Below are positions 9,630 through 39,823 of a stretch of DNA of 64,000 bases, one piece after another. Location of the stretch: contig OZ024742.1 of assembly GCA_964016885.1 (NCBI GenBank), forward strand, positions 147,994,001 through 148,058,000, written 5' to 3'. The translations under genes and the position numbers were made by a program. The notes beneath the pieces were generated by a model that saw nothing but the letters and a program-made list of their open reading frames with translations, was not told the DNA's origin and made no database searches. The stretch's first letter is position 1. Every line of letters starts with the position of its first letter. The DNA is from Eledone cirrhosa. Lineage: Eukaryota.

Positions 9630-9730
9630 AAATAAAGGAATATGAGTTCATGCAATTGACTTATGTTTCGTCACTATATATATATATATATATATATATA
9701 AGAACAAAAGATAGTTAAAAGAGTTCCATG

Positions 9731-9801
9731 TATTTTAATATGCGCATTTCAAAAACAAATATCATCATGCAATAATATTTGTGTTTTCATCAGATAAAAC
9801 A
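9731..9801 (-). ncRNA. Type I hammerhead ribozyme (minus arm)
   Basis: tgttttat-CTGATGA-stem II-GAAA-TGCGCA-TA-ttaaaata. Confidence 0.78.
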
Positions 9802-9861
9802 GGAGGACATGATATGAAGGTTAAAAAACATTTGTGGATAGTTCAGTTTTAAATCAACATA

Positions 9862-9932
9862 TGTTTTATCTGATGAAAACACAAATATTATTGCATGATG
9901 ATATTTGTTTTTGAAATGCGCATAATAAAATA
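9862..9932 (+). ncRNA. Type I hammerhead ribozyme (plus arm)
   Basis: tgttttat-CTGATGA-aaacacaaatattat tgcatg atgatatttgttttt-GAAA-TGCGCA-TA-ataaaata. Confidence 0.85.
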
Positions 9933-10103
9933 CGTGGAACTCTTTTAACCATCTTTTGTTCTTATATATTATGTATACTCCAGTCCTACAAACTGTAGAG
10001 TGCTTCTTATCCGATATCTGCATTGCTTTATTGTACTACAATAAAACTCACCTCCTACATATATATATATATATATATATATATATATATATATATATCG
10101 AAT

Positions 10104-10456
10104 GGATGAAAGCAAAAAAAAATGGACCTCAGTCGGATTTGAACTCCGACCGTAAAGAGCTGGAACAAATAATTCTAAACATTTGTCTGACGCTCTAATA
10201 ACTCTGCCAATCCACCGCCCTTAATGCACTTTATAAATAATGGTTTTTGATTTAGGCACAAAGCCAACAAATTTGTTTGGGGGCGGGAATATTGAATCAT
10301 CCCCAGTGCGTTACTGGCACTTTATTTTATCGACCCAGTAAGGATGAAAGGCAAAGCTAACCTCGGCGGGATTTGAAATCAGAATGTAAACGACCGTAAC
10401 TCTATGCCGCCAAGCAGGGTGTCCAACACTTCACCGATACTGTCAATCCATCGCCT
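10104..10456 (-). mobile_element. Two adjacent SINE family 1 copies (10104-10220 partial; 10241-10456)
   Basis: Same head and central block; diverged TSD-like atgcact.ta.aaataat on both sides of the second copy. Confidence 0.85.
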
Positions 10457-10654
10457 TTATGCACTATACAAATAATATTATAAATGAATTAGAATTTACA
10501 GCAAAAAGACTCCTTCAAAATCGGAGGTCCTCCTTGCATCACCCAGAATAAACTCAGGTCAGATGTAAAATGTAGGCTCCATTTCAACTTGCTCATTAGG
10601 TATTTTAACAATCAGTGTTTGAACCAATATTTCTTCCTGCCGCCCGGCGTCACA

Positions 10655-11410
10655 CCAAGGGGGCCAAGGAAGATTGCTCTATTTATAGAGAGATCGCCTT
10701 ACTAAGCCTTCCCGTTAAAGTCTATGTTAAGTATCAGACAAAGAGTTATAGGGATATTGTCGCGTCCAAGCTAGCTGACGAACAGCGTGGTTTTTGCCCC
10801 GGACGCAGCACAGTCGACCAAATATTCACACTGCGGCAGGTCGTCGAGAAATTGTGTAATGCCAAGAAATACATGCTTATTTCGTAGACCTCGAAAAGAT
10901 ACATGGTCGCTTTCCACGGGACCTGTTGTGGAAAGATCTGAAAAAGTATGAGATCGATGGACAGTTTTTTGCTGCTCTGATGTCTCTATACGAATGTCCT
11001 AGTATTTGTGTTTGGATAAGTTGTGCTAAGGCGAAAACATCTAATGTGGGTTTCGGACTCTGCCAAGAGTACGTACTGTCACCCCTCCTGTTCATAATGT
11101 TCATTTACATAAATTTGCAGATGACATGGTAGTCTGAAGATGATCTCTGACATGCACTCGATAGGCTTGATGCTGGGTGCTGCACGATTGTTAGTTCTGT
11201 GAAGACTGAGACGCTCGTACTCTCAAGGAAGCCTGCGTATTGCACTCTACATGTGAGTAGATTTCCACTGAAGCAGGTGGAGAAGTTCAAGTATCTCGGA
11301 GCCATGTTCACGAGTGATGGAAGGCAGTATTCGTGTCAATCCTTATCTATTGTCATGAATCTCAGGTAATGACCGAAAGCATACGATCGCGAATGTAAGC
11401 AGCTGAAATG
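10655..11410 (+). pseudogene. RTE-clade LINE reverse transcriptase fragment, frameshifted
   Basis: YREIALLSLPVKVY, DEQRGFCPGRSTVDQIFTLRQ, GLCQEYVLSPLLF, and VEKFKYLG encoded near 11277. Confidence 0.85.
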
Positions 11411-11763
11411 TGCCCTTTCATTTTTTAAATTAACACGGTAGAATGTGATTTCAGGGCGATTTGGCTGCTATTTCTAACAAGACGAGTGACCTCATTGATC
11501 AGTCATGACAAATTGCGGCCCATTTGGCTTTCTGAATGGCATGCCTAATCTAACAATTTTTTTTTAGTATAGGCGTCTCTATGATTTTTTCTTTAGTAAA
11601 TAATTTATTAAGTTTTCATAATTAATTAAATAAATAATGAAAAAAGGAGGAAGAGATAAAGAAGGACAGATCTGGCTGTATAGGAAAGTAAAGAAGAGGA
11701 CTATGATAAAAATAAGAAGAAAGGGAGGTAAAGAGCAAGGACAATTAGTTGAACTCTTTAGTA

Positions 11764-11830
11764 ATGCGGCCCGCCTATGATGAGTCATATCCTATGCGGC
11801 CCACTGCACGAAAAAGGTTTCCCATGCCTG
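11764..11830. mobile_element. hAT (Charlie/Buster-type) MITE terminus
   Basis: tgcggccc subterminal repeats, end ...ggtttcccatgcctg, then ccgTAgat (nnnTAnnn target). Confidence 0.6.
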
Positions 11831-37352: not shown

Positions 37353-37426
37353 ATCTATCTATCTATCGATCTATCTATCTATCTATCTATCTATCTATCT
37401 ATCTATCTATCTATCTATCTATCTAT

Positions 37427-38003
37427 CTATGTAGAACGACTATTGTCGCGGGTGGGACCAATCCGGTTGACCACTGAGTCCATTGTCATGATCAAACCGC
37501 CACCCTCCTTCAAAAACGGAGGAGAGGCGGTTTTCCTTTGTGTGATAGCTATGGCGAAAGAGGTTGTATGGTGGACAAGGTTGAAAGGGCTGAGGTCAGA
37601 CACCTTTCTCTCCGGCCAACAACTGATTCTTTTTTTCAAATACCACTTTGGAAGAAGAATCAGGATGGAGAGAGAGGTGCTCTACCCCAGCAAGTTTTAT
37701 GAAAGGTGGGTGAAAGTGGCGAGAATGGCCCGAGTGAATGGGCCTTCTCTCTATATCAGCCTGTAGGTTGAGGAAAAGGAGGAGGAGAGGAAAGGAGTAC
37801 AAACTCTTCGTACTCCTGGAGATGAGGGTTGCACATTTTTTCGGGGGTATGTGTTACCCATATGAACTGTTTCCCTCTATTGGGGAAAATCGACTAACTT
37901 TTAAATTCCATCTGTGATAACATTTTACACGTTTTTATTGTATGTAAACTTCCCCCTTTGTATTTGTCCCCTTCTTTTGTGCCCCTGTGGCTAATAAAGA
38001 AAC
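37427..38003 (+). mobile_element. Tx1-like copy D (A subfamily, short)
   Basis: Follows (ATCT)n 37353-37430; ORF ends at 37766; followed by atatctatctatct. Confidence 0.92.
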
Positions 38004-39025
38004 ATATCTATCTATCTAGTTAGCTAGCTGGATAGCTAGGCAGCTGTCTGTCTGTCTGTCTGTCTGCTTGTCTGCCTATCTGTATAACTATCTATCAATC
38101 TGAAGAGTGGTAAAAAGTCAAAAAATAAAAAAAAAACACATTGGTTTTCTAAAAGCCAGGTGTATTTGTGAGAATGTGATAATGTGTTGGAGCAACGTTC
38201 CTTTAAATCAGCCGCACTGTCATTATGTCAAACCAACTATTAACTCATACTATTTATTGCCTAACTTCATTTTATAATAATAAGTAGTTAAAGTGTTAAT
38301 TGGCCATACGTAACTTTCTCCCCGCTGCCCTACCACCACCTCCAGCACCACATATTTTCATTTATTACTACCATATGGTTGTAAATAGGACACACTGATA
38401 TATACGCACACGCGCGAGCACATACACAATTTCAAACACTCATAAGAACGATATATTGACATAATTGTTCACAGCAAAATTGGCTCATGGACATACAGAC
38501 AAGCACATCATAATATATATATATATATATATATATATATATATATATATATATATATATAGATATAGATATAGATAGGTAAATATACACGGGTGTGTAT
38601 GATTGTGTATAGAAGATTATATTAATAAGAGGAATTCCAACTTTGTCTGATTTACTCGTTTTATTTACAATCCTTTAAAATATATATAATATGGTATTAT
38701 AATGAAATAGTATGATAGAATATTAAATTCTAAGTGTTAATTCGCAATCTTCAGGTTCATGATATGTGGTGACAGTCGAGTTTGCAATTTTCAATATATA
38801 TATATACATACGCACACACGCACACACACACACGCGCACACACGCGCACACACGCACACATACACACACACACTTGCACGCACTCGCGCGCGCGCACACA
38901 CACACACACACACACGCAGTTATATATATATATATATATATTTAAAACAAAGAGGGTGTGGTAAGATACCAGGTGGACCATTAACGCATCAGAGTACTCA
39001 ATATTTAGGGTAGTAGAGTGGGTAA

Positions 39026-39131
39026 TAGGAAAAGAGTCAGGACCCCGACGGCTGAGCTCCGACAGCTAGATCCGACGAACTGATCGGATCTAGCTGTCGA
39101 AACGGCCGTCGGGGTCCTGACGCTTTCCCTA
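39026..39131. mobile_element. GC-rich ~105-bp palindromic MITE-like hairpin next to (TA)n
   Basis: tagg.aaag.gtcaggaccccgacggc...cgacagctagatccga / tcggatctagctgtcg...gccgtcggggtcctgac.ctttcccta. Confidence 0.75.
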
Positions 39132-39309
39132 TATATATATATATATATATATATATATATATATATATATATATATATATATATATATATGTAGGAGGTG
39201 AGTTTTATTGTAGTACAATAAAGCAATGCAGATATCGGATAAGAAGCACTCTACAGTTTGTAGGACTGGAGTATATATAAGAACAAAAGATGGTTAAAAG
39301 AGTTCCATG

Positions 39310-39380
39310 TATTTTATTATGCGCATTTCAAAAACAAATATCATCATGCAATAATATTTGTGTTTTCATCAGATAAAACA
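39310..39380 (-). ncRNA. Type I hammerhead ribozyme
   Basis: tgttttat-CTGATGA-stem II-GAAA-TGCGCA-TA-ataaaata. Confidence 0.85.
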
Positions 39381-39520
39381 GGAAGACATGATATGAAGAT
39401 TAAAAAACACTTGTGGATAGTTCAGTTTTGAATCAACATATGTTGATTTAAAATCATGATATGTTGATTTAAAACTGAACTATCCACAAGTGTTTTTTTA
39501 ATCTTCATATCATGTCTTCC

Positions 39521-39591
39521 TGTTTTATCTGATGAAAACACAAATATTATTGCATGATGATATTTGTTTTTGAAATGCGCATAATAAAATA
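39521..39591 (+). ncRNA. Type I hammerhead ribozyme
   Basis: Same motif on the plus strand. Confidence 0.85.
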
Positions 39592-39823
39592 CATGGAACT
39601 CTTTTAACCATCTTTTGTTCTTATATATATATATATATATATATATATATATATATATATATATATATATATATGTGTGTGTGTGTGTGTGTGTGTGTGC
39701 AGATTTATGTGTGCGTCTTTGTAAGCATATACGTTTGTTTTTATGTCTTACTTAAATTTTTCATGAATGAAATAGCCGGTGTCTACGAAAAGACTAATTT
39801 TCCATCATAAAGATGTCATAATA

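What the first reader, a model, noticed from the sequence alone, without database searches (positions are those of the whole stretch)
9700..39622. Reproducible asymmetric inverted architecture with a ribozyme on each strand
Two independent insertions (9700-10058 and 39191-39622, opposite orientation) have different central inversion points but identical outer ends. The long arm ends ...AATAAAactcacctcctac|(AT)n; the short arm stops at an internal TATATA (...ttttgttctt|ATAT). The long/short-arm logic recurs in unrelated families (25025, 32451, 43972), and several long arms end in CTAC. Inference: two priming events from opposite target strands, one at the RNA 3' end and one at an internal TA microhomology. 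A transcript from either strand would carry one hammerhead plus its antisense, so cleavage would compete with fold-back.
Basis: partly seen in the sequence, partly recalled or inferred. Interest (0 to 1): 0.75.

Follow-up and report, generated by a model that had tools for sequence, protein, structure and literature searches.

The report
Back-to-back stubs of Penelope retrotransposon
The two hairpins are short, independently made insertions of an abundant Penelope-type jumping gene in a layout already described, and across the genome the back-to-back arms nearly always pair one short with one long end, which likely records both cut DNA strands copying the element's RNA from two fixed internal start points.

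Summary
9700-10058 and 39191-39622 are independent head-to-head stubs of the terminal repeat (pLTR) of a Hydra-clade Penelope-like retrotransposon. A parent 800-aa RT/GIY-YIG ORF was found, and the hammerhead core occurs 19,064 times. Arm ends are fixed at two sites: S (an AT box, 10,968 ends) and L (CTAC, 8,352 ends). Of 107 sampled L ends, 74 have an inverted S partner, 10 an L partner, 23 none resolved. Corrections: L is not the element's RNA 3' end (210 copies read on into the ORF leader). Both short arms stop at the same CATATG. 25025 and 32451 are one family, whose long end is not CTAC. Fold-back beats the hammerhead fold by 84-95 kcal/mol (predicted), so there is little competition. Inverted pLTRs, one-sided tails, (TA)n targets, opposite-strand hammerheads and two internal start sites are published. 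Not found in print: near-obligate S+L pairing, tail-only long arms stopping at S, and a fixed 5' stop; together they suggest twin priming on one RNA. This scan reported the same pattern before, on other DNA in this and other genomes.

The parts
9675..9699 (.). (TA)n target, left of copy A
9700..9863 (-). Copy A short (S) arm: pLTR from CATATG to the S end; hammerhead core at 9793-9787, stem I first pair mismatched
9864..10058 (+). Copy A long (L) arm: 195 nt, pLTR plus tail, ends at CTAC
9862..9932 (+). Minimal type I hammerhead motif with palindromic helix III (AUGCGCAU); predicted cut after 9924
9964..10058 (+). Tail, S box to L end (95 nt from the pure-TA junction, about 81-85 nt from the majority junction)
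10059..10098 (.). (AT)n target, right of copy A
39130..39190 (.). (TA)n target, left of copy B
39191..39449 (-). Copy B long (L) arm: 259 nt from CATATG to CTAC; hammerhead 39380-39310; tail 39191-39278 with a 7-nt deletion in the S box
39450..39465 (.). 16-nt reiteration of the arm's 5' end at the head-to-head junction
39466..39622 (+). Copy B short (S) arm; hammerhead 39521-39591
39623..39674 (.). (TA)n target, right of copy B
25026..25553 (.). Second PLE family (F2): L arm 25277-25026 (minus), S arm ending near 25553 (plus); 57-nt tail inside the ORF's first codons
32451..32834 (.). Second copy of F2: 36-nt tail-only L arm, longer S arm, flanked by a 13-bp direct repeat (32438-32450 and 32835-32847)
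43972..44714 (.). Third PLE family (F3): S arm 44489-43972 and beyond (minus, the longer one), L arm 44490-44714 ending in CTAC; 134-nt tail

Best explanation
The two cassettes are 5'-truncated, head-to-head insertions of the terminal repeat of a Hydra-clade Penelope-like retrotransposon, likely made by twin priming: the element's enzyme would nick both strands of a (TA)n target, and the two 3' ends would start reverse transcription at two fixed internal sites (S and L) of one RNA. SHOWN HERE: parent ORF, two fixed ends, both internal; S+L pairing; a 5' stop at CATATG; a different junction in most insertions. INFERRED: the S-primed copy runs first on a clear template. The L-primed copy follows and either stalls where S began (tail-only arms) or displaces the first cDNA and re-copies the same stretch. 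Both run off at CATATG, likely the RNA 5' end, so the commonest product is two short 'strong-stop' copies of the front of the mRNA. Their 3' ends join by microhomology, short reiterations or the 6-bp palindrome. The hammerhead on each strand is a by-product of duplicating the pLTR and is predicted to be locked in the hairpin in a whole-cassette transcript.
For: PARENT: an 821-codon open frame with RT motifs and C-terminal GIY-YIG lies between these pLTRs; Hydra motifs RW, DKT, CxCX5C, CxxC, CxH present (definitions PMC8557442). ENDS genome-wide: 10,968 stop at S, 6,702 read S into the tail, 8,352 stop at L, 210 read L into the leader. PAIRING: 74 of 107 L ends have an inverted S partner, 10 an L partner (2 internal tandem read-throughs, 2 rows of one doubtful pair, 6 rows from 4 insertions), 22 none detected, 1 unscored. 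74 of 84 against 0.57 expected for independent ends, p 6e-10. NOT FOLD-BACK FROM L: 18 of 74 L arms reach 98 nt or less and so barely or not at all overlap the S arm; the S arm reaches further upstream in 38, the L arm in 10, 26 tie (p 6e-5). ONE TEMPLATE: 7 of 35 L arms that stop 29-250 nt from L stop in the 11 nt at the S box (p 0.0014); arms of one insertion differ by 0.76%, arms of different insertions by 4.6% (45 pairs). 5' STOP: in 45 short cassettes 23 L arms and 29 S arms begin 250-262 nt upstream of L; 5 share the 6-nt CATATG overlap, the rest have varied junctions. Two other families have two fixed ends, with tails of 57 and 134 nt. In vitro precedent: the anole enzyme cleaves and extends both strands, starts at two internal sites bounding the tail, and is modelled as a dimer (PMC11167929).
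Against: No biochemical or RNA evidence was obtained; that CATATG is the RNA 5' end is inference. Similarity between arms is also expected from two transcripts of one source locus or from later gene conversion, and the own partner was uniquely the closest in only 2 of 45 pairs (best or tied in 32). The pile-up at S rests on 7 arms and could be RT slippage in an AT box; the window was chosen after seeing the data. Four L+L insertions and two S+S pairs (L080, L108) exist. 22 of 107 L ends have no detected partner, which may bias the arm-length comparison; a few scored pairs have incomplete element cover (0.74-0.9). Short fold-back remnants and reiterations at CATATG show that self-priming also happens, and for the symmetric mini-cassettes, including the two in the window, fold-back cannot be excluded. 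The sample is from the first 60 Mb of one contig and favours young copies with exact motifs. Most L arms (56 of 74) pass the S site, which needs strand displacement or a second RNA.
Confidence: 0.6

Rival explanations
1. Two-template dimer: each subunit carries its own RNA from the same source locus; an asymmetric complex makes one start at S and the other at L.
For: Explains overlapping arms without strand displacement (56 of 74 L arms pass S) and within-insertion similarity. A dimer is modelled for the anole enzyme, and minimal hammerheads with palindromic helix III are proposed to act as RNA dimers (PMC4209133).
Against: Gives no reason for L arms to pile up at S (7 of 35) or for the S arm to reach further (38 vs 10), and needs an extra rule to avoid S+S and L+L.
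Confidence: 0.2
2. Single priming at L, then self-priming fold-back at the CATATG palindrome; the return copy is resolved at the AT-rich S box by microhomology or endonuclease cutting (after PMC3846280 and PMC8557442).
For: Gives S+L automatically. Perfect CATATG-centred junctions in 5 of 45 and reiterated ends in several more. It could account for the two window copies taken alone.
Against: Predicts that the L arm always contains the S arm. Found: S reaches further in 38 of 74, and 18 of 74 L arms are tail only; the same holds at 32451 and 43972.
Confidence: 0.13
3. The mini-cassette is a self-propagating non-autonomous unit (MITE-like or a two-ribozyme retrozyme) with a function for the opposed hammerheads.
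For: 53 of 74 S+L insertions are 500 nt or shorter, and the size class near 430 nt is common.
Against: Junctions differ between insertions. The same ends bound insertions up to 4.6 kb, some holding the whole ORF. Arms match their own partner better than other cassettes. The hairpin is predicted to suppress the ribozyme. No tandem monomers were seen at these loci.
Confidence: 0.05
4. Segmental duplication of one cassette, or an assembly artefact.
For: Outer ends are identical, and palindromes in (TA)n are hard to assemble.
Against: Flanks and centres differ; thousands of dispersed ends. Contigs of public runs show loose ends into (TA)n at both S and L (these may be the source sample, so not independent).
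Confidence: 0.02

Closest known systems
Hydra clade of Penelope-like elements, including Hydra-1_Obim (Craig et al. 2021, PMC8557442; passages, section 11 and supplement hits read)
   Same: Single ORF with RT and C-terminal GIY-YIG; RW, DKT, CxCX5C, CxxC and CxH motifs; no CCHH; hammerhead in the terminal repeat; (TA)n targets; inverted 5'-truncated copy; tail often at one end only.
   Different: A different family from Hydra-1_Obim (protein and hammerhead compared by eye only). Motif reads RW-T/I, not RWK. Unit is about 3.3-3.7 kb, not under 3 kb. Tail is 81-95 nt, not 30-40. About 19,000 hammerhead-bearing arms.
Inverted pLTR plus optional tail of EN+ PLEs, e.g. Pen2a_Av (Arkhipova et al. 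2013, PMC3846280; passages read)
   Same: Head-to-head inverted pLTRs, tail on one of them, palindromes or overlaps at the junction. In the 25025 family the pLTR and tail cover the first ORF codons, as in Pen2a_Av.
   Different: The paper calls the tail optional and explains inversion by self-priming on an antisense template; here tail plus no-tail pairing is near-obligate, and tail-only arms argue for two primers.
Anole Poseidon PAc in vitro (Frangieh et al. 2024, PMC11167929; parts 1-2 of 4 read)
   Same: Two internal RT start sites bounding the tail; AT-rich targets; both strands cleaved and extended; hammerhead cleavage not needed for insertion.
   Different: Different clade. The paper saw no difference in start site between strands and did not address pairing within one insertion or the inverted junction.
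Minimal PLE hammerheads (Cervera and de la Pena 2014, PMC4209133; part 1 of 4 read)
   Same: Type I motif with short palindromic helix III in pLTRs; dual motifs 100-700 bp apart on opposite strands are described there.
   Different: Nothing essential; stem II here is longer (about 12-15 bp).
LINE-1 twin priming (Ostertag and Kazazian 2001, seen as described in review PMC10760644; passage read)
   Same: Two primers from the target site, two cDNAs joined by microhomology, giving an inversion.
   Different: In L1 the first primer uses the poly(A) end and the second site varies, with little overlap (recalled). Here both sites are fixed and internal, and the arms usually overlap.

Membership tests
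EN+ Penelope-like element | Single ORF with RT and GIY-YIG endonuclease between pLTRs | tested here: met
   821-codon frame with FDIASYY, GASDS, YRDD, LIYEC...YFG between these pLTRs. Motifs read by eye; Pfam gave no hit.
EN+ Penelope-like element | Partial tandem and inverted pLTR arrangements | tested here: met
   Tandems in L064, L065, L071, L073, L074; inverted arms in most loci
EN+ Penelope-like element | Tail extension at one end (30-40 bp in print) | tested here: met
   Two fixed ends in three families; tails of 81-95, 57 and 134 nt, longer than described
EN+ Penelope-like element | Hammerhead motif in the pLTR | tested here: met
   Core and stems I/II present. Rfam gave no hammerhead hit at E<=1.
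Hydra clade | DKT in place of DKG; GxKF/Y absent | tested here: met
   DKT at 144; no GxKF/Y match
Hydra clade | RWK motif | tested here: inconclusive
   RRLRWT in P0001, RRLRWI in other copies; RW kept, K not
Hydra clade | CxCX5C linker; CxxC and CxH flanking E and N; no CCHH in the EN core | tested here: met
   CNCRIKNKC 680, CNLC 780, CLH 808; a single Cys (703) inside the GIY-YIG core
Hydra clade | Insertion into (TA)n | tested here: met
Hydra clade | Placement in the Hydra clade in an RT tree | not tested
   No tree built; similarity to Hydra-1_Obim judged by eye from the supplement
Neptune/Nematis clade | CX2-5CxxC linker and CCHH motif | tested here: not met
   Linker is CxCX5C and CCHH is absent in P0001
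Active hammerhead ribozyme | Self-cleavage | not testable with these tools
   Only folding energies; 0 of 74 L arms start at the cut site, 1 of 45 S arms does
Non-LTR retrozyme or MITE | Autonomous unit identity: tandem monomers or clonal terminal inverted repeats | tested here: not met
   Varied junctions, continuum of lengths up to ORF-containing copies, arms identical to the parent's pLTR

The most novel reading that the evidence does not exclude
Penelope-like elements integrate by obligate twin priming on a single RNA at two fixed internal sites, the second enzyme displacing or stalling at the first, and most products are paired strong-stop copies of the mRNA's 5' end. One rule would then explain the tail, the inverted pLTR and the thousands of mini-palindromes with opposed hammerheads.
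Probability: 0.45. Interest if true: 0.65.

Novelty: new member of a known kind. Interest (0 to 1): 0.36.

Why it matters
How Penelope-like elements build their inverted ends and tails is stated as open in PMC8557442 and PMC11167929. This family gives thousands of natural products with fixed landmarks (S, L, CATATG) and so makes the one-RNA versus two-RNA versus fold-back question testable in the existing in vitro system. The architecture, the opposed hammerheads and the two start sites are themselves already published, and the window's two copies add nothing beyond being typical examples.

Tried and rejected
Rfam scan of the window: no hammerhead family at E<=1, only microsatellite-driven miRNA hits. 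Pfam on the parent protein: 0 families. PDB sequence search: only chance hits. Neptune assignment (my first guess) dropped after the motif test. Idea that a C/T variant marks read-through versus terminal L ends: rejected, 98 of the first 100 read-through copies carry C like the terminal ones. RNA evidence: no RNA holder listed; the four runs are contigs of unknown kind and say nothing on expression or start sites. Shared hairpin or motif 3' of S and of L (lead from e1-8668527): hairpins are predicted at both in most of 7 read-through copies, but the best 15-mer match (11 of 15) was reached by 209 of 2000 shuffles, so inconclusive. Hammerhead cut as a source of template 5' ends: not supported. 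Sequence look-up in earlier findings gave nothing. The 2026 retrozyme preprint (10.64898/2026.07.22.740005; term search only) has no passage on inverted arms or tails. One search failed on a pattern error and was redone; one search printed too much and was summarised.
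Full report
OBSERVATION. Both loci are as described: inverted arms in (TA)n, with one arm extended by a tail. In copy A the short arm is 9700-9863 (minus) and the long arm 9864-10058. In copy B the long arm is 39191-39449 (minus), followed by a 16-nt reiteration and the short arm 39466-39622. The flanks beyond the microsatellites are unrelated, and the centres differ, so they are separate insertions. 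Each arm carries CUGAUGA, a long stem II, GAA, the palindrome AUGCGCAU, the cut site and stem I: a minimal type I hammerhead. Rfam does not detect it.

WHAT IT IS. A 21-nt piece of the hammerhead occurs 19,064 times in the 3.0-Gb genome, with 0 for the reversed control. Among the first 100 hits, many come as minus-then-plus pairs 0.1-5 kb apart. The longer pairs enclose an ORF of about 800 codons. [quoted passage not shown] These are the marks of the Hydra clade of Penelope-like elements (PMC8557442 section 11). By eye it resembles Hydra-1_Obim but is another family; no tree was built. The window's cassettes are therefore truncated pLTR stubs.

ARM ENDS. Of 107 hammerhead-bearing arms in 90 loci of contig C1, 50 end at an AT box (S), 45 at CTAC (L), 4 read through, and 8 end elsewhere. 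Genome-wide exact-pattern counts: 10,968 stop at S, 6,702 run through S, 8,352 stop at L, 210 run through L. After L comes an 80-84-nt leader and the start codon, so L is internal to the element's continuous sequence. Ten of the 45 L ends keep up to four bases of that continuation. A master copy ending in L plus (AT)n could still pass this end on as an RNA 3' region; I cannot exclude that for individual copies.

PAIRING. I sampled 107 L ends from loci L031-L180 (first 60 Mb of C1; 60 loci were fetched for this from the list). 74 have an inverted S partner, 10 an L partner, 22 none detected, 1 was unscored. Of the 10, two are internal tandem read-throughs, two rows are one pair with 49% element cover, and six rows are four insertions. 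Against 0.57 expected for independent ends, 74 of 84 gives p 6e-10. Two S+S pairs appear in the hammerhead sample (L080, L108). The tail can sit on the ORF-bearing arm or on the inverted stub.

5' ENDS AND JUNCTIONS. In 45 short cassettes (43 sampled, plus the two in the window) 23 L arms and 29 S arms begin 250-262 nt upstream of L, at CATATG. Five join by the 6-nt palindrome overlap; the others show small overlaps, insertions or reiterated ends. Both window copies have their S arm at this stop, so the 'different inversion points' reduce to different L-arm starts. Among the 74 S+L insertions, 18 L arms reach 98 nt or less, and 7 of the 35 that stop 29-250 nt from L stop at the S box (p 0.0014, window chosen after inspection). 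The S arm reaches further upstream in 38, the L arm in 10, and 26 tie within 25 nt. Arms within an insertion differ by 0.76%, between insertions by 4.6% (45 pairs). None of 74 L arms and 1 of 45 S arms starts at the hammerhead cut.

OTHER FAMILIES. 25025 and 32451 are the same family (93%). In 30 loci its ends fall mostly at positions 195 and 250-252, a 57-nt tail. Full-length parents with RT and GIY-YIG were found in L241 and L242, and the tail lies within the first 28 codons. Its long end is GAAACGAAA. The 32451 copy has a 36-nt tail-only arm and a 13-bp direct repeat on both sides, which fits staggered nicks. The 43972 family has ends at 91 and 224-225 in 30 loci, a 134-nt tail ending in CTAC. 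It has a hammerhead-like motif with a very long stem II (read by eye), and is continuous with a PLE ORF in 3 of 14 extended loci. So the asymmetry recurs in two further families, all Penelope-like.

MECHANISM. Shown: two fixed internal ends, S+L pairing, tail-only arms, a fixed 5' stop, varied junctions. From print: the anole enzyme cleaves and extends both strands of AT-rich DNA, starts at two internal sites that bound the tail, and does not need hammerhead cleavage (PMC11167929). The D. virilis element has an internal promoter (PMC2377424, passages). Inferred: both nicks prime on one RNA, S first and L behind it. L stalls at S or displaces the first cDNA (PLE proteins are recalled to lack RNase H; not tested). 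Both run off at CATATG, likely the transcription start, and the cDNA ends join head to head. I give this 0.6, a two-RNA dimer 0.2, and fold-back from L 0.13. Fold-back fails as a general route because it needs the L arm to contain the S arm, but it may act locally at the palindrome and cannot be excluded for the two window copies themselves.

RIBOZYMES. Whole-cassette transcripts fold at -161 and -266 kcal/mol. Forcing the hammerhead costs 84 and 95 kcal/mol, against 5-8 in a single arm. On either strand the antisense arm is made first. Helix III is a bare palindrome, the form proposed to need a dimer (PMC4209133). Cleavage in such transcripts is unlikely; only transcripts that start at the centre would leave a hammerhead free. 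No RNA data were available.

NOVELTY. Inverted pLTRs with a one-sided tail and junction palindromes (PMC3846280; PMC8557442), opposite-strand hammerheads 100-700 bp apart and internal double initiation are published. Searches listed no paper joining Penelope with twin priming or strong-stop copying; subscription papers and several supplements were not seen. Earlier notes of this scan reach the same reading on other DNA of this and other genomes; they are not independent support, and one of them prompted the Hydra test. Verdict: a new member of a known kind, with a useful, testable quantitative footprint. Interest 0.36.

Noticed in passing
window 9575-9674 (+): Another hammerhead-like motif (CUGAUGAG, stem II, GAAA, TA palindrome, stem I ACUGC/GCAGU) in an unrelated unit whose (TA)n end is the target of copy A: nested insertion.
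   Followed up: no
window 9360-9427 (-): Older, diverged hammerhead resembling the main family's stem I and cut site.
   Followed up: no
window 60573-60871 and 25609-25794: Further small inverted units with hammerhead motifs and palindromic or near-palindromic helix III, beside (TA)n; probably stubs of other Penelope-like families.
   Followed up: partly
window 17155-17236 (-): Hammerhead motif with a full 8-bp helix III next to (TA)n.
   Followed up: no
window 44765-45552: 273-bp arms 99.6% complementary around a 242-nt spacer, directly beyond the (AT)n of the 43972 long end; 45230-45275 is also inverted at 45591-45637. No hammerhead found by my scan.
   Followed up: no
window 6983-7443: About 180-bp inverted arms with microsatellite centre, no hammerhead found; MITE-like.
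   Followed up: no
window 39025-39132 and flanks of L015, L020, L022, L029: A GC-rich palindromic element recurs next to (TA)n tracts used by the main family.
   Followed up: no
L004, L108: Flanks on the two sides of the cassette are themselves inverted copies of each other for 20-45 bp, suggesting insertion into, or later formation of, a larger palindrome.
   Followed up: no
L241:2947-5614, L242:2378-5165: The 25025-family ORF carries a long Asn/His/Thr-rich low-complexity insert before the RT, reminiscent of the Asn-rich inserts of rotifer Penelopes (PMC3846280).
   Followed up: no
L075 (G000:C1:18485000-18494900): Two S+L cassettes with matching junctions, in inverted orientation 6.5 kb apart, inside a larger inverted duplication: a real case of segmental copying of a cassette.
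   Followed up: no
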